DNA of 64,000 bases from an uncultured virus (IMG/VR IMGVR_UViG_3300027973_000060) (lineage: Duplodnaviria > Heunggongvirae > Uroviricota > Caudoviricetes). The notes under the pieces are model-generated. The model saw nothing but the letters and a program-made list of their open reading frames with translations. It did not search any database and was not told the DNA's origin. The position numbers and the translations under genes are program-made. This document shows, one piece after another, positions 7,070 through 40,680 of the stretch. Location: IMG/VR virus record IMGVR_UViG_3300027973_000060; one strand, given 5' to 3'. Positions within the stretch are counted from its first letter, which is position 1; the number at the start of each line of letters is the position of its first letter.

Positions 7070-8908
7070 ATGGCAATAAACTACAACTCCGAGTTTACGG
7101 CAGACATGATTAAAGATCCTGATGCTCCAATCAAAAAAGAAGCTCTATCAAAAGAAAAATTCTTTTATGATGTGTATAAGCCGAGCATTGGAGGCGATGC
7201 TGGCTTATTGTCATTTTTTCCTAGTGGCGGAAGGGGTGCTGGGCAAGTTGACGGAAGCCCTAGGGTTCCAGATTATAATCAATTCTTAGCAGGATCTTCA
7301 ACTTACTCACATAGGCATGACGGCAAGGTGTACAACATGTCGGCTAAACAAGATACTAAAAAGATGTTTAATGATGCCTTTGAAAGCTACAAAACAAATC
7401 TTGAATCTGAAAATGTTTCCGCGCAGAAAAATTACGAAACTGAGCTTGGGTACAGTACGGCCGCTCGTGGATTGTCAAATATAACCAACACATCAAGAGT
7501 AAATCTTGAGCCAGTAAATCAAGCCGTTGCCGCGCTTTCGGCCAAAAGAAACTATGGAGTTTCAGATTATGCTTCTAAATTAAATTTTCAAGTTTCCGAC
7601 GAACAAATTCTTCAAGACTTAAATGCGGCAAAAATTTCTAAACTTAATAATATAGTTAATTCTGGTAATGCCCAAATTGTTGGGATTAGGCAACGCATTG
7701 ATGATGCCTCCAAATTAGTCGGAAGCTTAAAGGCTGGAGATGCTCGCAGAACAACCGCAGAGAAGGCCATCGCCTCAATGACTTCCGACTTGAATAGCGT
7801 CAACCAGGCAATATCTGAGGCAAATGAAAACATAAAAAACTATAAGCCACTTACGGCATCTGATGAGATGGGATTAAAGGATATTGTTGCTTTCCGTGAG
7901 TTTATCCAATTACCCGAAGAGCGAGCGTCACAACAGCTTTACCAGATCGATCCAGATTCTTATCGCACCGCGGTTAGCCTGGGCCAGAAGTACAGGGAAA
8001 TGGCGACTCAACCGATCGAGCCAACAACAACTCCCGAGACAGAGCAACTTCGCAGGACAATTGAGGATGAGGCAATCAACCAATTGCAACTCGGGTCGAC
8101 CATTGGTGCCGAAGAACGTCGCGGGTACGAGCAGGCAATCCGCGGGGCTCAAACTGCCCGGGGAAATATTTTCGGTCTTGGACCGGCAGTGCAAGAGGCC
8201 GCGCAGATTGGGGCAGCCGGAGAGCAACGCAAGCTGGCCAGGTTTGGGGCCGCGCAACAGTTCCTTGGTTCTGGCGAAACTTCCGGCGCAGCCAGAGCTC
8301 GGGATCTTTTACTTCGTGAAGGCATCCAGCAGAATAGGCTTGGAGCCGCGTCCGGGTTTATTGCTGGCGGACCTTCTATCTACAACCTAGCTGGCGCACG
8401 CACCGCACAGCAACAGAATGCAATACAGGGCTACATCCAAGCCAATCAAGCTCTACCTGGTGGCTTTAACCAACAGCCTTCTACGGCTTCTAACTTCTAT
8501 CAGACTGTTGATCCAGGCATTCCTGTTGCCCTTACCGGTGAATTCAACAAACTCTACAATACGCAATCTAATTACTTGGCTAATACTTATGGAGCGCAAG
8601 TTGATGCCCTATCTCGCGTTGCTGTTGCAAATTCATTTCCTAACTATCTCAGCGCTGGCGCTGACATATTTAAGGGAGTTGGATCGTTGGGCGGAACAGC
8701 AGGAATATTTGCATGCTGGGTGGCTCGCGAGGTTTATGGTGCTGACAATCCTAAGTGGCTTGAATTTAGGGAGTGGATGTTTACGAAGGCATCAGACAAC
8801 TTGAGAAACTTCTACCTCGAATATGGAGAAAGAATTGCCAAGTCAATACGCAACAAACCCAAAATAAAAGCAGTCATCCGCAAGTGGATGGACAGCAAGA
8901 TAGGATAA
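7070..8908 (+). CDS. Internal virion/ejection protein with C-terminal CWVAREVYG domain
   Basis: A/Q-rich helical protein; homolog at 46669. Confidence 0.7.
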   Translation: MAINYNSEFTADMIKDPDAPIKKEALSKEKFFYDVYKPSIGGDAGLLSFFPSGGRGAGQVDGSPRVPDYNQFLAGSSTYSHRHDGKVYNMSAKQDTKKMFNDAFESYKTNLESENVSAQKNYETELGYSTAARGLSNITNTSRVNLEPVNQAVAALSAKRNYGVSDYASKLNFQVSDEQILQDLNAAKISKLNNIVNSGNAQIVGIRQRIDDASKLVGSLKAGDARRTTAEKAIASMTSDLNSVNQAISEANENIKNYKPLTASDEMGLKDIVAFREFIQLPEERASQQLYQIDPDSYRTAVSLGQKYREMATQPIEPTTTPETEQLRRTIEDEAINQLQLGSTIGAEERRGYEQAIRGAQTARGNIFGLGPAVQEAAQIGAAGEQRKLARFGAAQQFLGSGETSGAARARDLLLREGIQQNRLGAASGFIAGGPSIYNLAGARTAQQQNAIQGYIQANQALPGGFNQQPSTASNFYQTVDPGIPVALTGEFNKLYNTQSNYLANTYGAQVDALSRVAVANSFPNYLSAGADIFKGVGSLGGTAGIFACWVAREVYGADNPKWLEFREWMFTKASDNLRNFYLEYGERIAKSIRNKPKIKAVIRKWMDSKIG

Positions 8909-26995: not shown

Positions 26996-27451
26996 ATGAT
27001 CAATAAAGACACACTCAACATAATTCGTAACCAGATTGACCCGCTCCTGGCAGAGCTCAACAAGGTCAACAAGCAGTTCAACCTCAAGCTAGGCAACTGC
27101 ACCTACAACGCGGACACTGCCACATTCAAGATGGAGGTTCGGTCGGTTGAGGAAGGCGGAGAGATTGTGACCAAAGACCTGGCAGACTTGCGGTCGATTG
27201 TTCGCCATGGATTCGACGGACTAAAGGAGGAGCACTTGACCAAGGAGTTTAAGACCCCCAAGGGCACTTCTCGCCTGTGCGGATACAGGGGCCGGGCGAA
27301 CAAGTCGTTCGTCTTCGAGGTGCTCGACGGAGTTAACAAGGGCAAGAAGTTTGTGACGGACACAAAGGGCATCCAGTTCTACCTGGGCATCGAGGCGCCC
27401 TCGATCCTGAAGGTGACTGAGTGGAAGAAGGAGGTTGTATGTCAGAGCTAA
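26996..27451 (+). CDS. Hypothetical protein
   Basis: 151-aa ORF in operon orientation. Confidence 0.7.
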   Translation: MINKDTLNIIRNQIDPLLAELNKVNKQFNLKLGNCTYNADTATFKMEVRSVEEGGEIVTKDLADLRSIVRHGFDGLKEEHLTKEFKTPKGTSRLCGYRGRANKSFVFEVLDGVNKGKKFVTDTKGIQFYLGIEAPSILKVTEWKKEVVCQS

Positions 27452-27515
27452 TCCTATTGACCCCATGCGGAATTCTATGCACCGTGTTTATGTGGAAAAT
27501 GTACTGGAGGAAACC

Positions 27516-27791
27516 ATGAACTACTACGACGACAAAGAAGAGGGAGCGCTCACGTTCGAGCAGATTGTTCCGGGCAAGTACTACCGATACAACCGGGACT
27601 ATGGGATCTGCGAGATCATGGAGAGTGCTAGCAACAAGCCGAAGATCCTGCGCTATCTAAATCGGGACGGTGGACTGCTCGGAGGTAATGGAGATCTGTT
27701 CGAAATCGACATGACCGACAGGCTCCTGGAAGTGCTGAAGGAGCGTCGGGATAAGACGATCGGGTTCATCGACGAGATGGGGACATGGTGA
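27516..27791 (+). CDS. Hypothetical protein
   Basis: GGAGG SD before ATG 27516. Confidence 0.6.
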   Translation: MNYYDDKEEGALTFEQIVPGKYYRYNRDYGICEIMESASNKPKILRYLNRDGGLLGGNGDLFEIDMTDRLLEVLKERRDKTIGFIDEMGTW

Positions 27792-28453
27792 GTTTACGCG
27801 CAGATAGCTCAATAGTAGAGCTTCCCCTATTCCAAGGGGACGATGGAGGTGCAATTCCTACCTCTGCGCTCCAACTTAAATTCCGGGCCATAGGGTCCAA
27901 GACGATGAATGAAGTAGTCGTCGCCAACCACTACGCGCACCGGGCCGTGCCGTGCAACTGGTCGTTCGGGTGCTTCCATGGCAATGAACTGCTGGGAGTA
28001 ATCTCGTTCGGCAAACCCGCGTCGCCTCATCTATGCAGGGGCATATGCGGGGCAGAGAATGCGTCCAGGGTCTACGAGTTGAACAGATTGTGGCTCGACG
28101 ATCGGTGTCCTAAGAACTCTGAAAGCAGATTCATATCCTGGAGCATTCGAGAGTTAACAAAGTTGCGACCGTACTTGATCCTGGTTAGCTATGCAGACAC
28201 CGGGGCCGGGCACAATGGAATGATCTACTCGGCAACGAACTGGATCTATACCGGACTGTCCGACAAGAGATCTTCCGGGGACAAGGTGGTCGGCAACAAG
28301 CACAGCAGGCACTCGCGGACCATGGAAGAGGCAGTGATCGTTCCGCGGACCAGGAAGCATAGGTTTGTCTATTTCTGCAATCAGAAGGACAAGGCTTTAC
28401 TGAAATGGGAGATACAAAACTGGAAAGAATGGAAAGAATGGAGGGAAGAATGA
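27785..28453 (+). CDS. mom: Mom-family DNA adenine modification enzyme (GNAT fold)
   Basis: NHY..H, LLGVISFG.P, YELNRLW, KNSESRFIS, LVSYAD...GH.G.IY.ATNW.Y.G and KHRFVY motifs. Confidence 0.8.
   Translation: MVSLRADSSIVELPLFQGDDGGAIPTSALQLKFRAIGSKTMNEVVVANHYAHRAVPCNWSFGCFHGNELLGVISFGKPASPHLCRGICGAENASRVYELNRLWLDDRCPKNSESRFISWSIRELTKLRPYLILVSYADTGAGHNGMIYSATNWIYTGLSDKRSSGDKVVGNKHSRHSRTMEEAVIVPRTRKHRFVYFCNQKDKALLKWEIQNWKEWKEWREE
27798..27873 (+). tRNA. Non-canonical tRNA-Gly(TCC)-like element nested in the mom-like CDS
   Basis: 76 nt; acceptor GCGCAGA/TCTGCGC, T discriminator, encoded CCA; D arm GCTC/GAGC; TCC at positions 34-36; atypical T arm GGAGG-TGCAATT-CCTACC. Confidence 0.75.
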
Positions 28454-28647
28454 GTAAATCAATTGAATGTCCTAACTGTAGATGTGAGGTCCCGGTGGCG
28501 CTGTTCACGTCCAGAATCGGCAGGGTGAGGTCGGAGGCTAAGGCCAAGGCATCGATCGCTAATGGTAAGAAGGGTGGGGCGCCTAAAGGTAACAGGAATT
28601 GGGCCGGGAAAGAGCTCCCGGTGGTTGGTTTTAGTGCTCAAAACTAG
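28450..28647 (+). CDS. Small putative DNA-binding protein (CPNC plus AKAKASIANGKKGGAPK)
   Basis: ATGA coupling; basic NGKKGG.P motif. Confidence 0.6.
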   Translation: MSKSIECPNCRCEVPVALFTSRIGRVRSEAKAKASIANGKKGGAPKGNRNWAGKELPVVGFSAQN

Positions 28648-39316: not shown

Positions 39317-39585
39317 AGCGCATCGCAACATGGATCACAGTCCTAGGTTTGCGTTTATTGCTGACGGCAAAGGATTACGCCTGTTTCAAGGAGGCACTGA
39401 AGTGTGCCGAGGACAACAACAGGCTTGCAAGGGGAACGAAGTATATCGGTGCAGTAAAGCATCTTCTGTCAGTCAACAGATCGATCAAAAGGATGGTAGA
39501 CGACGGCAGGGACCGGGACGAGGTCGTCGGTGCGGTCGTACATCTTGCGGTCAGTCTCAAGTACCTGGAGTCTCGCAATGAGTGA
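39313..39585 (+). CDS. Hypothetical protein, unit B only
   Basis: ATGA-coupled; overlaps the start of the next gene. Confidence 0.6.
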   Translation: MKRIATWITVLGLRLLLTAKDYACFKEALKCAEDNNRLARGTKYIGAVKHLLSVNRSIKRMVDDGRDRDEVVGAVVHLAVSLKYLESRNE

Positions 39586-39805
39586 AGACCAGGTGTGGGG
39601 CATAGAGGTCAAATTGGCCCGGATGGAAGAGCGCCAGGTCCAGTTGTATCAAATGGTCGAGACCAGCTTGTCAAACTACGCAGATGTGGTAAATAGAGTT
39701 TCTGCCCTGGAACACCTCCGTTCCAGGATATTTGCAATTGCTGGGGTCGCCGGGCTGCTGTTTTCCGTTGCCTGGGACCTAGTTAAAAACAGGATGAACC
39801 ACTAA
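39578..39805 (+). CDS. Coiled-coil plus TM protein (holin/XhlA-like)
   Basis: Homolog of 1165..1392. Confidence 0.6.
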   Translation: MSEDQVWGIEVKLARMEERQVQLYQMVETSLSNYADVVNRVSALEHLRSRIFAIAGVAGLLFSVAWDLVKNRMNH

Positions 39806-40680
39806 TGGCTACACTAGGAACGCAGAACATTTCGACCAGTTACGTCCAGCTAATTAAAACTAGCGGTCTTACTGGCATAGACCCAACGATCCAGACCATC
39901 ACCGATGGCAACAACGTATCCTCTGCGCTTCAGCTATCTACGACAGGCGTAAACTCAACTGGCACGCTTAATGCGGTTGGTGCGACCACCCTGGCGTCTA
40001 GCTTGGCTGTCACCGGGGCAGCTACGTTCAGTTCTAGCGTAAACATTTCAAGCGGAACAACCACAATTGGCACCCTGTCTGCAAGCACTGCCACCATCTC
40101 TACTGCCACCATATCAACCGCCACTATTCCAGTCCAGCTTGGGGCAATTACATTTGGATCTCACATAACAGCATCTACCGGGACAGCAACGATTGGCACA
40201 GCCACAATCAGCACAGCTACAATCAGCACAGCTACGATCCCCACAATCAACGGAGTGACAACCTTTGCTACTGGCTTCACATCTTCTACTGGAACGAACA
40301 CGCTTGGGACGATTGCCTCCACGACAATTAGCAATACTGGTGTAGTAACAGTTGGAAGCCTTGAGATTGGTGGTTCAGCCGGACCAACACTTACAAAAGT
40401 ATCCTATACTACGGCAACCTTTGGATCAGCTGTTGTCGCGGCGTATAATGTGGCAGACACGACAACCGGAACATTTTCGCTATCCGGAGTTGAGTTGGGG
40501 GACATAGTCATCGGATCAATTAATTCGCTCGGATCGACAACTGGCACAGTGCAGATTATGACCAATTTTTATCCAATTGCTTCAAATGTTGCAAGGTATG
40601 TCGTCAATAGCAAAGGAGCAACCGCAGGCACAATTCCCGCAGGAACAATATTCGCAACCGCAATGAGGTTTATAACATGA
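39805..40680 (+). CDS. Thr-rich virion fibre-like protein with ATIST repeats
   Basis: Homolog of 1392..1925, ~114 aa longer. Confidence 0.7.
   Translation: MATLGTQNISTSYVQLIKTSGLTGIDPTIQTITDGNNVSSALQLSTTGVNSTGTLNAVGATTLASSLAVTGAATFSSSVNISSGTTTIGTLSASTATISTATISTATIPVQLGAITFGSHITASTGTATIGTATISTATISTATIPTINGVTTFATGFTSSTGTNTLGTIASTTISNTGVVTVGSLEIGGSAGPTLTKVSYTTATFGSAVVAAYNVADTTTGTFSLSGVELGDIVIGSINSLGSTTGTVQIMTNFYPIASNVARYVVNSKGATAGTIPAGTIFATAMRFIT

What the first reader, a model, noticed from the sequence alone, without database searches (positions are those of the whole stretch)
27785..28453. tRNA-Gly(TCC)-like RNA encoded in frame inside the 5' end of a Mom-family adenine-modification gene
Seen: 27798-27873 folds as a 76-nt cloverleaf. 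It has a perfect 7-bp acceptor stem GCGCAGA/TCTGCGC, a T discriminator, an encoded CCA, D arm GCTC/GAGC and TCC at positions 34-36. The T arm is atypical (loop TGCAATT instead of TTCRAAT, bulged stem) and the anticodon stem is irregular. The same bases encode ..ADSSIVELPLFQGDDGGAIPTSALQ of the Mom-like ORF. Established: Mu Mom makes N6-carbamoylmethyl-adenine, a glycinamide-like adduct; G1-C72, C2-G71, U73 and C35C36 are bacterial GlyRS identity elements; staphylococcal non-proteinogenic tRNA-Gly used in wall synthesis have altered T arms that weaken EF-Tu binding. From memory, and needing verification, Mom has been reported to use Gly-tRNA-Gly as donor. Inference: the gene carries its own non-ribosomal glycyl-donor tRNA. 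Because excising the tRNA would destroy the mRNA, the overlap could also time or limit expression of a toxic enzyme.
Basis: partly seen in the sequence, partly recalled or inferred. Interest (0 to 1): 0.92.

Follow-up and report, generated by a model that had tools for sequence, protein, structure and literature searches.

The report
Glycine-tRNA look-alike inside phage Mom genes
A conserved look-alike of glycine tRNA is written into the coding sequence of a phage DNA-modifying enzyme (Mom) that is known to need glycine-charged tRNA, so the phage probably brings its own private glycine carrier.

Summary
Window 27798-27873 (+) is a 76-nt cloverleaf that scores above Rfam's tRNA threshold (35.3 bits against 29), although ARAGORN misses it. 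It lies in frame 10-13 nt after the start codon of a Pfam Mom gene (E 2e-40).

It is not a chance fold. The same element sits beside or inside Mom genes in more than 150 viral contigs. Stem covariation is very strong: in 101 aligned copies, 98.4% of cells pair and 14 of 21 pairs change on both sides.

The element keeps the bacterial GlyRS determinants (G1-C72, C2-G71, U73, C35, C36) and an encoded CCA. It has lost features needed for translation:
- U33 is not conserved.
- The anticodon loop has 5-8 nt.
- The T stem carries a one-base bulge.
- The T loop often reads UGC instead of UUC, as in the staphylococcal cell-wall tRNA-Gly.

It occurs at the 5' end of Mom ORFs, at their 3' end, unfused, and in tandem, including in a cultured Psychrobacter phage.

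Mom uses Gly-tRNA-Gly as donor (Silva et al. 2026). The best reading is a dedicated, non-ribosomal glycyl carrier RNA co-encoded with its enzyme. Processing and charging are untested. I found no report of it in print.

The parts
27798..27873 (+). tRNA-Gly(UCC)-like RNA, 76 nt: acceptor stem, D arm, anticodon arm with an 8-nt loop UAUUCCAA, 4-nt variable region, T arm with bulged A and UGC T loop, discriminator U, encoded CCA
   Evidence: Rfam tRNA 35.3 bits. Cloverleaf is the minimum-free-energy fold. Own model R1 scores 103.9 bits. Covariation shown. Closest cellular hits of R1 are tRNA-Gly genes.
27785..28453 (+). Mom-family ORF (222 aa from ATG 27785; 221 aa from GTG 27788) that reads through the tRNA-like element
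   Evidence: ORF list. Pfam Mom E 2.2e-40. Profile hit to Mu Mom 8bv8, E 6e-27. AF2 model with mean pLDDT 79.
27785..27790 (+). Two adjacent candidate start codons, ATG 27785 and GTG 27788. The GTG is the one kept in relatives that have CTG in place of the ATG.
27797..27874 (+). 26 codons (residues 5-30, RADSSIVELPLFQGDDGGAIPTSALQ) that are both peptide and tRNA-like RNA. The peptide is predicted disordered.
   Evidence: Residues 1-23 have pLDDT below 50, and residues 1-27 have no secondary structure. Codon variants per column are 1-6 here against 5-19 downstream.
27875..28420 (+). Mom (GNAT-fold) catalytic domain, residues 31-212
   Evidence: R101 and S114 are invariant and align with Mu Mom R111 and S124.
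27435..27791 (+). Upstream ORF (118 aa, no family assigned here) whose stop TGA 27789-27791 overlaps the Mom start codons
27793..28483 (+). Stretch that one metatranscriptome contig of a relative lacks as a single block: tRNA-like plus Mom, replaced by 29 other letters
   Evidence: tables 5 and 5c. One contig at depth 3.55, so weak.

Best explanation
The 76-nt element is a derived tRNA-Gly(UCC) gene that serves Mom as a dedicated glycyl carrier outside translation.

The proposed pathway, all inferred:
1. The element is transcribed as part of the mom mRNA.
2. It folds into a cloverleaf and is released by the host's tRNA-processing enzymes: RNase P at G1, and 3' trimming to the encoded CCA.
3. 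Host GlyRS charges it with glycine.
4. It escapes EF-Tu and the ribosome, so its glycine stays available to Mom, which transfers it to N6 of adenine in phage DNA.

What is shown here: the fold, purifying selection on the RNA, retention of the GlyRS determinants and CCA, decay of translation features, and near-exclusive linkage to Mom genes in several arrangements.

Because the RNA overlaps the ORF, releasing it would remove the start codon (5' arrangement) or the stop codon (3' arrangement). If so, one transcript gives either enzyme or carrier.
For: (1) The RNA is real.
- In 26 distinct copies, 98.0% of cells pair, against 44-54% when partners are slid, and 5 pairs change on both sides.
- In 101 copies, 98.4% pair against 35-46%; 14 of 21 pairs and 549 cells change on both sides; the covariation score is 0.605 against 0.139 for shuffles.
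- Among 69 distinct ORFs, amino-acid-identical pairs use different codons at a rate of 0.177 in the 26 tRNA codons, against 0.47 and 0.48 downstream.
- L148 has a 2-nt D-loop deletion, so its acceptor and D arm are read in another frame while the nucleotides stay conserved.
- The encoded peptide is predicted disordered.

(2) The identity is glycine.
- G1-C72, C2-G71 and G3-C70 are present in 26 of 26 copies, and U73 in 25 of 26, in a set whose search pattern did not include the acceptor stem.
- The same features are present in the 5 divergent copies found through the protein.
- CC stands in the anticodon loop in 98 of 101 copies.
- In two bacterial genomes, model R1's best cellular hits are tRNA-Gly genes at 56.2 and 59.5 bits; the next best are Val and Thr at about 40 bits.
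- Compared with a cellular tRNA-Gly(UCC), the window copy differs mainly by one extra base in the anticodon loop, the T-stem bulge, G for U in the T loop and A for G in the D loop.

(3) It is unfit for translation.
- The base before the anticodon is U in only 47 of 97 loops.
- Loop length is 7 nt in 57 of 101 copies, 8 nt in 29, and 5-6 nt in others.
- The T-stem bulge is present in 101 of 101, though this is partly fixed by the search pattern.
- A majority of T loops begin TGC instead of TTC (all). This is the same deviation as in the EF-Tu-avoiding staphylococcal tRNA-Gly (PMC7826273).

(4) It is linked to Mom.
- A protein-blind RNA pattern gave 82 viral stretches. All 70 distinct ORFs around them resemble the window's Mom, and 28 of 28 tested are Pfam Mom.
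- Of the best 80 loci from a search with the Mom domain alone, 34 carry the element directly 5' of the domain.
- Of 120 loci from a second pattern: 43 are 5'-embedded, 3 have the start codon inside the element, 1 is unfused, and 42 are 3'-embedded. Pfam adds 5 full and 8 partial Mom genes upstream of the element. 18 loci remain unresolved.
- Tandem copies follow Mom in L267 and in the cultured Psychrobacter phage vB_PmaS_Y8A.

(5) The biochemistry fits. Mom uses Gly-tRNA-Gly and rejects Gly-tRNA-Ala (PMC13219725).
Against: - No processed or charged RNA was seen. In three metatranscriptomes, contigs run across both borders of the element. This shows the unprocessed form, or carried-over DNA, and nothing about maturation.
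- Mu Mom works with all three host tRNA-Gly isoacceptors, so a private carrier is not strictly required.
- Of the 80 Mom loci, 46 lack the element. So do four cultured-phage Mom loci and the second Mom of phage Y8A.
- Excision would destroy the mRNA in most arrangements, which looks costly.
- A pure 'separate RNA gene' reading does not explain why the ORF so often reads through the element, and in one frame: 43 of 43 5' loci and 41 of 42 read-through 3' loci.
- Both pattern searches fix part of the sequence, so conservation of those parts is by ascertainment.
- Verrucomicrobia phage P8625 has a copy, with a T-stem mismatch, but no Mom anywhere in its genome.
Confidence: 0.55

Rival explanations
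1. The element is a cis-acting tRNA mimic. It stays in the mom mRNA and is bound by Mom itself, or by GlyRS or another tRNA-binding factor, to set translation or mRNA stability of a potentially toxic enzyme. Known parallels are tRNA-like operators in synthetase mRNAs and the structure-dependent control of mom translation in Mu; both parallels are recalled, not checked here.
For: - The fold begins 4-19 nt after the start codon in 41 of 43 5'-type loci, and ends 1-43 nt before the stop codon in 41 of 42 read-through 3'-type loci. Ribosomes must therefore melt it.
- In three loci the start codon lies in the D loop.
- In L166 the Shine-Dalgarno sequence follows the CCA by 5 nt.
- Mom discriminates the tRNA-Gly body, so a mimic would need the same features.
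Against: - The element works from either end of the gene, unfused, and in tandem intergenic copies. That is unusual for an operator tied to a start site.
- Conservation of C35, C36 and of a 3' CCA followed by variable sequence fits a charged free RNA better than an internal mimic.
- The two readings are not exclusive.
Confidence: 0.2
2. The conservation reflects a peptide. The N- or C-terminal tail (..ELPLFQG..GGxxPT..LQ) would be the functional unit, and the cloverleaf a by-product.
For: - The same frame (GGxxPT) is used in 43 of 43 5'-type loci and 41 of 42 read-through 3'-type loci.
- That frame is open in 41 of 42 unique read-through 3'-type copies, against 13 and 23 of 42 for the other two frames. 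In 5'-type copies it is open in 32 of 32, against 9 of 64.
- Truncating 20 N-terminal residues lowers Mu Mom activity.
Against: - Residues change wherever the stems covary: A to G, A to P, and many more.
- Synonymous changes come in compensating pairs.
- L148 reads part of the element in another frame.
- Copies outside any ORF exist: L166, L270 and phage Y8A.
- The tail is predicted disordered.
- The frame counts are partly circular, and the 3' type forms only two clades.
Confidence: 0.05
3. The element is a phage tRNA with another use: a decoding tRNA (for example a +1 frameshift suppressor, given the 8-nt loop), a decoy against host tRNA-targeting defences, or a decaying pseudo-tRNA or recombination hot spot.
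For: - The window copy has an 8-nt anticodon loop.
- Phage mosaics break exactly at its 3' end: the same upstream sequence and RNA are joined to Mom bodies of 35-83% identity.
- P8625 keeps a copy without any Mom.
Against: - Loop size and the base before the anticodon vary freely, and the T stem is bulged. This argues against decoding.
- Strong covariation over deep divergence argues against decay.
- The near-exclusive Mom linkage is not expected for a general decoy.
- The P8625 copy has a T-stem mismatch and sits in a leftover tail resembling a Mom C-terminus, which fits a remnant.
Confidence: 0.08

Closest known systems
Non-proteogenic tRNA-Gly(UCC) of Staphylococcus aureus and S. epidermidis (NP1-3), the glycine donors for the peptidoglycan transferases FmhB, FemA and FemB (PMC7826273)
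   Same: - UCC-type tRNA-Gly still fit for GlyRS.
- TGC instead of TTC in the T loop.
- Altered D and T regions.
- A role as a private donor for an aminoacyl-tRNA-dependent transferase that competes with EF-Tu (role inferred here).
   Different: - Phage-encoded rather than chromosomal.
- The partner enzyme modifies DNA, not cell wall.
- It has a T-stem bulge and variable anticodon-loop size, and some copies lack a D arm.
- The gene overlaps its partner's ORF.
- It is not a member of the staphylococcal lineage.
Phage Mu Mom with host Gly-tRNA-Gly (Silva et al. 2026, PMC13219725; PDB 8bv8)
   Same: The window ORF is a Mom-family protein with the aligned catalytic Arg and Ser. The chemistry presumably matches: glycyl transfer to N6-adenine, then rearrangement.
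   Different: Mu relies on host tRNA-Gly, and the paper mentions no tRNA-like element ('tRNA-like' and 'embedded' each occur 0 times in the main text). Here the gene carries its own. In the profile match, homology with Mu Mom starts at residue 30 of Mu Mom and profile position 29, directly after the tRNA-coded peptide, so Mu's first 29 residues do not align with that peptide.
Ordinary phage-encoded tRNA genes
   Same: Cloverleaf, encoded CCA, tandem copies in some phages, location between gene modules.
   Different: ARAGORN does not call it in the window, and reports a tRNA at the element's position in only 1 of the 37 close relatives' loci. It departs from decoding features. It is tied to one enzyme family and usually lies inside that enzyme's reading frame.
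Aminoacylatable tRNA-like structures attached to messages (3' TLS of plant RNA viruses; tmRNA)
   Same: A tRNA-like module is physically joined to a coding RNA. The window copy gives a weak, sub-threshold Rfam match to the Tymovirus TLS (17.4 bits against 40).
   Different: This is a DNA phage. The module is a full four-arm cloverleaf of glycine identity, lies inside the ORF at either end, and its partner is a DNA-modifying transferase.

Membership tests
tRNA (Rfam RF00005) | Covariance-model score at or above the gathering score | tested here: met
   35.3 bits against 29. Of 20 relatives' loci, 12 also pass and 8 do not.
tRNA (Rfam RF00005) | Four-helix cloverleaf supported by covariation | tested here: met
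   98% of cells pair, and 14 of 21 pairs show changes on both sides.
tRNA (Rfam RF00005) | Canonical elbow and decoding features: G18G19, U55, U33, 7-nt anticodon loop, unbulged 5-bp T stem | tested here: not met
   The window copy has A-G in the D loop, G in place of the second T-loop U, an 8-nt anticodon loop and a bulged T stem. ARAGORN returns 0.
Bacterial tRNA-Gly (GlyRS substrate) | Identity determinants G1-C72, C2-G71, U73, C35, C36 (PMC10464925) | tested here: met
   All are present in the window and conserved in relatives. R1's best cellular hits are tRNA-Gly genes.
Bacterial tRNA-Gly (GlyRS substrate) | Actual glycylation, and a free 3' CCA end after processing | not testable with these tools
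   Only RNA-library contigs were available. They span the element and cannot show RNA ends or charging.
Non-proteogenic tRNA-Gly (staphylococcal type) | UCC anticodon with TGC or TGT in place of TTC in the T loop | tested here: met
   The window T loop is TGCAATT and the loop carries UCC.
Non-proteogenic tRNA-Gly (staphylococcal type) | Weak EF-Tu and ribosome binding; preferred by the partner transferase | not testable with these tools
   Inferred only, from the T-stem bulge and the irregular anticodon loop.
Non-proteogenic tRNA-Gly (staphylococcal type) | Membership of the lineage confined to staphylococci | tested here: not met
   Found in freshwater viral contigs and in a Psychrobacter phage. 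It works like that family but is not a member of it.
Mom family (Pfam PF25680; Mu Mom, PDB 8bv8) | Profile match above the cut-off over the whole domain | tested here: met
   138.9 bits against 27.1, profile positions 2-199 of 202. Match to 8bv8 at E 6e-27.
Mom family (Pfam PF25680; Mu Mom, PDB 8bv8) | Catalytic Arg and Ser (Mu R111, S124; essential according to the abstract of PMC13219725) | tested here: met
   R101 and S114 of the window protein are invariant in 32 sequences. They align with the Arg of ELNR and with the mutated Ala of NSEA in the S124A crystal chain. The numbering offset of 9 between chain and native protein is my inference.
Mom family (Pfam PF25680; Mu Mom, PDB 8bv8) | Adenine N6 carbamoylmethylation of DNA | not testable with these tools
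   Needs LC-MS of nucleosides.

The most novel reading that the evidence does not exclude
The overlap is itself the mechanism. The transcript would be bifunctional: maturation of the glycyl-carrier RNA by the host's tRNA-processing enzymes removes the start codon (5' arrangement) or the stop codon (3' arrangement) of mom. Each transcript then yields either enzyme or carrier. The enzyme-to-carrier ratio and the shut-off of a toxic enzyme would be hard-wired. The Mom subfamilies that carry the RNA would have co-evolved to prefer this private carrier, which EF-Tu does not see, over host tRNA-Gly.
Probability: 0.3. Interest if true: 0.92.

Novelty: new variant of a known kind. Interest (0 to 1): 0.88.

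Why it matters
The discovery that Mom uses charged tRNA to modify DNA was published only in 2023 (preprint) and 2026. This finding adds an unrecognised partner to that system.

- It is a large, covarying family of glycine-tRNA look-alikes hard-linked to Mom genes. Rfam holds it only as a marginal tRNA match, and ARAGORN called none in the window or in the two cultured-phage loci that carry it.
- It would be the second known case of a tRNA set aside for an aminoacyl-tRNA-dependent transferase, after the staphylococcal cell-wall tRNA-Gly. It would be the first such case in a virus and the first for DNA modification.
- It is a rare example of a structured RNA gene nested in frame inside the gene of its partner protein.
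- Natural variation shows which tRNA parts matter for GlyRS and Mom, and which for EF-Tu and the ribosome.
- A cultured host-phage pair, Psychrobacter phage vB_PmaS_Y8A, makes the question directly testable.
- For annotation, these elements are currently hidden inside 'hypothetical protein' tails or in unannotated gaps.

Tried and rejected
- ARAGORN: 0 tRNAs in the window; 1 odd call ('tRNA-???', two-base anticodon) in 37 loci; 0 in 53 distant Mom loci; 0 in the two cultured-phage loci. It cannot be used for this family.
- Whole genome of the window: none is held, so no host tRNA-Gly comparison was possible. Two unrelated genomes served as stand-ins.
- Earlier notes of this scan: nothing on record.
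- RNA evidence: 6 RNA runs hold 7-15% of the sampled words. Four were laid, all as contigs. Contigs bridge 27798 and 27873 in X19, X20 and X24. This gives no information on ends, strand, level or processing, and the material may include DNA.
- Genome-collection scan with the first pattern: 2 hits. One (L120) is a chance match inside an unrelated ORF. The other (L121) is a real, divergent copy on a 2.8-kb contig binned with an Omnitrophota genome. I do not take that binning as a host assignment.
- Cultured phages, by the window sequence: blastn of 27785-27890 gave no match. tblastn gave 309 records with Mom-like hits, all under 60% identity; the 40 listed start at query residue 30 or later. R1 with filters off on four of those loci gave only noise under 7 bits.
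- Cultured phages, by other family members: queries found phages Y8A and P8625. One query found nothing. One found only generic phage tRNAs.
- Attachment-site or packaging-site reading: rejected. No integrase lies adjacent in the window's ORF layout around the element. The full cloverleaf covaries, and CCA and the GlyRS determinants have no role in such sites. I did not search the window for an integrase by family.
- Internal start codon after the element: none is conserved. The first in-frame ATG lies a median of 47 codons after A76 in 66 distinct ORFs, and the first ATG, GTG or TTG a median of 10 codons. In the 5' type, translation therefore most likely starts upstream.
- A custom scan for an acceptor stem plus NCCA in the 46 negative Mom loci found 4 matches that look like chance.
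- Complex prediction was not used, because it takes no RNA chain.
- Prior art: searches; text finds in both versions of the Mom paper; and 2 of its 3 supplementary files (the third is a picture-only PDF that could not be read). None mentions a tRNA-like element in or beside mom genes.
Full report
**What is in the window**

Bases 27798-27873 (+) read as follows:
- acceptor stem GCGCAGA/TCTGCGC
- UA
- D arm GCUC-AAUAGUA-GAGC
- anticodon arm UCCCC-UAUUCCAA-GGGGA
- a 4-nt variable region
- T arm GGAGG-UGCAAUU-CCU-A-CC
- U, then CCA

Rfam's tRNA model matches positions 1-70 of 71 at 35.3 bits (gathering score 29). E is 1.2e-5 on 701 bases. It is the only family above threshold in the 64-kb window, at E 0.0011. 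The thermodynamic optimum is the cloverleaf at -30.9 kcal/mol, z = -3.06, and it survives in a 181-nt context. ARAGORN finds nothing, which the bulged T stem and the 8-nt anticodon loop explain.

The same bases are codons 5-30 of ORF 27785-28453. This ORF is a Mom-family protein:
- Pfam PF25680 at E 2.2e-40, domain at residues 31-212.
- A profile match to Mu Mom 8bv8 at E 6e-27 that starts right after the tRNA-coded peptide.
- The Arg and Ser that align with Mu R111 and S124 are invariant in 32 relatives.

**It is conserved as RNA, not as peptide**

A protein search of IMG/VR gave 37 loci at 45-100% identity. All carry the element in frame. L037, at 45% protein identity, has an almost identical 76-mer, and its sequence diverges immediately after the CCA.

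A protein-blind pattern covering the anticodon loop to the T loop gave 82 viral stretches. Together with the earlier loci these make 120 records, 26 distinct 76-mers without indels, and 70 distinct ORFs. All 70 are in the same frame, with a start codon 10 or 13 nt before G1, and are 35-100% identical to the window's Mom. 28 of 28 divergent ones are Pfam Mom.

On the 26 distinct copies, 98.0% of cells pair, against 44-54% with slid partners. Each of the four helices has at least one pair changed on both sides. Many of these changes are paired synonymous substitutions: AGC/GAG to AGU/GAA, and GGA/CCU to GGC/CCG. Others change the amino acid to keep the pair: Ala to Gly together with Ala to Pro.

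Amino-acid-identical pairs use different codons at a rate of 0.177 in the 26 tRNA codons, against 0.47 in the next 26 and 0.48 in the rest. Caveat: this set was ascertained by a pattern covering roughly codons 10-21.

AlphaFold, run with a 32-row alignment, leaves residues 1-23 below pLDDT 50 and without secondary structure. The domain itself scores about 90.

**The family is large and diverse**

A search with the Mom domain alone (alignment A2) kept the best 80 of 546 relatives. My covariance model R1 finds the element directly 5' of the domain in 34 of those 80: 29 hits at 97-106 bits and 5 divergent ones at 45-65 bits.

The five divergent copies:
- L148 has a 2-nt D-loop deletion. Its acceptor and D arm are therefore translated in a different frame while the nucleotides stay conserved.
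- L200 has a 5-nt anticodon loop.
- L166 has a more canonical D loop and T loop. It lies upstream of the ORF, with the Shine-Dalgarno sequence and start codon following the CCA.
- L172 and L171 complete the five.

The other 46 loci have no such element.

On 101 copies aligned to the model:
- 98.4% of cells pair, against 35-46% with slid partners.
- 14 of 21 pairs and 549 cells change on both sides.
- The covariation score is 0.605 against 0.139 for shuffles.

Here the T stem and positions 70-76 are fixed by the pattern, and the alignment is fitted to the model.

**What is kept and what is lost**

Kept:
- G1-C72, C2-G71 and G3-C70 in 26 of 26 copies, and U73 in 25 of 26, in the set whose pattern left the acceptor free. 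The five protein-found divergent copies have them too.
- CCA throughout.
- CC in the anticodon loop in 98 of 101, mostly followed by A (71 of 97).

These are the published bacterial GlyRS determinants (PMC10464925, passages).

Lost or loose:
- The base before the anticodon is U 47, G 21, A 20, C 9.
- Anticodon loops are 7 nt in 57 copies and 8 nt in 29, with some of 5-6 nt and some longer.
- Position 8 is A in about half of the copies.
- A majority of T loops begin TGC, not TTC.
- Every copy has a one-base bulge in the T stem, within the stretch of stem that an abstract seen in a search listing (PMC3239215) names as the main EF-Tu contact.
- A 69-nt class lacks a D stem.

TGC or TGT in place of TTC is exactly the deviation reported for the staphylococcal non-proteogenic tRNA-Gly, which avoid EF-Tu and feed FmhB (PMC7826273).

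In two unrelated bacterial genomes, R1's best cellular hits are tRNA-Gly genes at 56.2 and 59.5 bits, against about 40 bits for the next tRNAs. Aligned to them, the window copy looks like tRNA-Gly(UCC) with one extra base in the anticodon loop, one bulge in the T stem, and single changes in the D and T loops.

**Arrangements**

The 120 loci of the second pattern divide as follows:

| Arrangement | Loci |
|---|---|
| Start codon upstream (-4 to -52), ORF reads through the element into the Mom domain | 43 |
| Stop just upstream of the element, first start codon inside the D loop | 3 |
| Unfused, upstream of the ORF | 1 |
| Element after the Mom domain; ORF reads through it and stops 1-43 nt after the CCA (one at 136 nt) | 42 |
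| Full Pfam Mom upstream, stop between -12 and +7 of G1 | 5 |
| Partial Mom C-terminus upstream | 8 |
| Unresolved | 18 |

Most of the unresolved loci have only 300-nt flanks or contig ends. One of them, L223, has a glycosyltransferase-like ORF upstream.

In a tree of 59 Mom domains, the 3' arrangement forms two well-supported clades (97/97 and 100/99). The 5' arrangement lies between them, and the minimum number of changes is two. The partnership is therefore old and has survived rearrangement.

Other observations:
- Tandem copies occur in L267.
- In the cultured Psychrobacter phage vB_PmaS_Y8A, two copies fill an unannotated gap between a Mom gene annotated as hypothetical (Pfam E 1.8e-55) and the small terminase gene.
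- Verrucomicrobia phage P8625 has one copy, with a T-stem mismatch, inside a 64-aa ORF whose tail resembles a Mom C-terminal tail. No Mom exists anywhere in its genome. I read this as a remnant.
- One metatranscriptome contig of a relative lacks 27793-28483 as a block.

**Mechanism**

Mom transfers glycine from Gly-tRNA-Gly to N6-adenine in double-stranded DNA and rejects Gly-tRNA-Ala (PMC13219725). Together with the anatomy above, the best reading is a dedicated glycyl carrier. It would still be recognisable by GlyRS, by RNase P and by Mom (acceptor-T minihelix, CCA, C35 and C36). It would be poorly recognised by EF-Tu and the ribosome, which gives Mom a pool of activated glycine that translation cannot drain.

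Shown here: the fold, selection on the RNA, retention of the determinants, and the linkage to Mom. Inferred: excision, charging, avoidance of EF-Tu, and use by Mom.

Unexplained: why the ORF so often runs through the element, and in one frame. This holds for 43 of 43 5'-type and 41 of 42 read-through 3'-type loci. That frame is open in 32 of 32 and 41 of 42 unique copies, against 9 of 64 and 36 of 84 for the other frames. These counts are partly circular and reflect few independent origins.

One attractive reading is that excision removes the start codon or the stop codon, so a transcript yields enzyme or carrier but not both. A cis-acting mimic that binds Mom is the main rival, and it may coexist with the carrier role.

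**Limits**

- No host genome is held.
- The RNA data are contigs only. They span the element and are silent on processing.
- Both pattern searches fix parts of the sequence.
- The 34 of 80 figure comes from the 80 relatives most like the query, not from a census.
- I found no mention of such an element in the literature searches, in either version of the Mom paper, or in its readable supplements (one file was unreadable).

Noticed in passing
window 1-24795 versus 37224-63984: The window holds two diverged copies (76-92% identity in blastn pieces) of the same phage gene block. The unique middle part, with replication genes, tRNA-like plus Mom, and terminase, lies between them. It looks like two related phage genomes, or a concatemer of variants, assembled in one record.
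   Followed up: partly
L336 1090-1157 and 1162-1230 (OQ059336.1, about 7786-7926): Cultured Psychrobacter phage vB_PmaS_Y8A carries two tandem tRNA-like copies (34.5 bits each) in an unannotated gap between a Mom gene annotated as hypothetical and the small terminase gene. A second Mom at 39405-40049 has none.
   Followed up: yes
L335 1501-1576 (NC_029047.1 1995-2070): Verrucomicrobia phage P8625 has a copy with a T-stem mismatch inside the 64-aa gp04, after a ParB-N6-methylase gene. No Mom exists in the whole genome. It is probably a remnant left after Mom was replaced.
   Followed up: yes
L267 726-793 and 801-869 (minus strand): Two tandem tRNA-like copies follow a Mom C-terminus. The ORF appears to read through both.
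   Followed up: partly
L223 755-829 (oriented coordinates): This tRNA-like copy (63 bits) has a 255-aa ORF upstream with a weak glycosyltransferase-1 match (E 1.7e-5, below the cut-off) instead of Mom. It may have a different partner, or Mom may lie further away.
   Followed up: no
L217, L221, L236, L257, L265, L267, L271, L274, L284, L286, L332, L333: A 69-nt class lacks a D stem; the segment AAAGAGCAGG stands in its place. It keeps the acceptor-T minihelix and a CC-containing anticodon arm.
   Followed up: no
window 27792/28484: One metatranscriptome contig (run X21, depth 3.55) joins these two places with 29 other letters between them. A relative therefore lacks tRNA-like plus Mom as one cassette, and the next ORF (with a CxxC motif) has a different N-terminus.
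   Followed up: no
window 28452-28647: A small ORF directly after Mom starts MSKSIECPNCRC, which is zinc-ribbon-like with a basic tail. I did not test whether it relates to Mom control, as Com does in Mu (recalled).
   Followed up: no
upstream of type-A copies, e.g. L030, L045, L051, L067, L111: An identical upstream leader and tRNA-like element are joined to Mom bodies only 37-83% identical to the window's. Mosaic break points therefore lie at the 3' end of the element.
   Followed up: partly
L120 3001-3030: Chance match of the first search pattern inside an unrelated ORF of an alphaproteobacterial genome. It is not a family member.
   Followed up: yes
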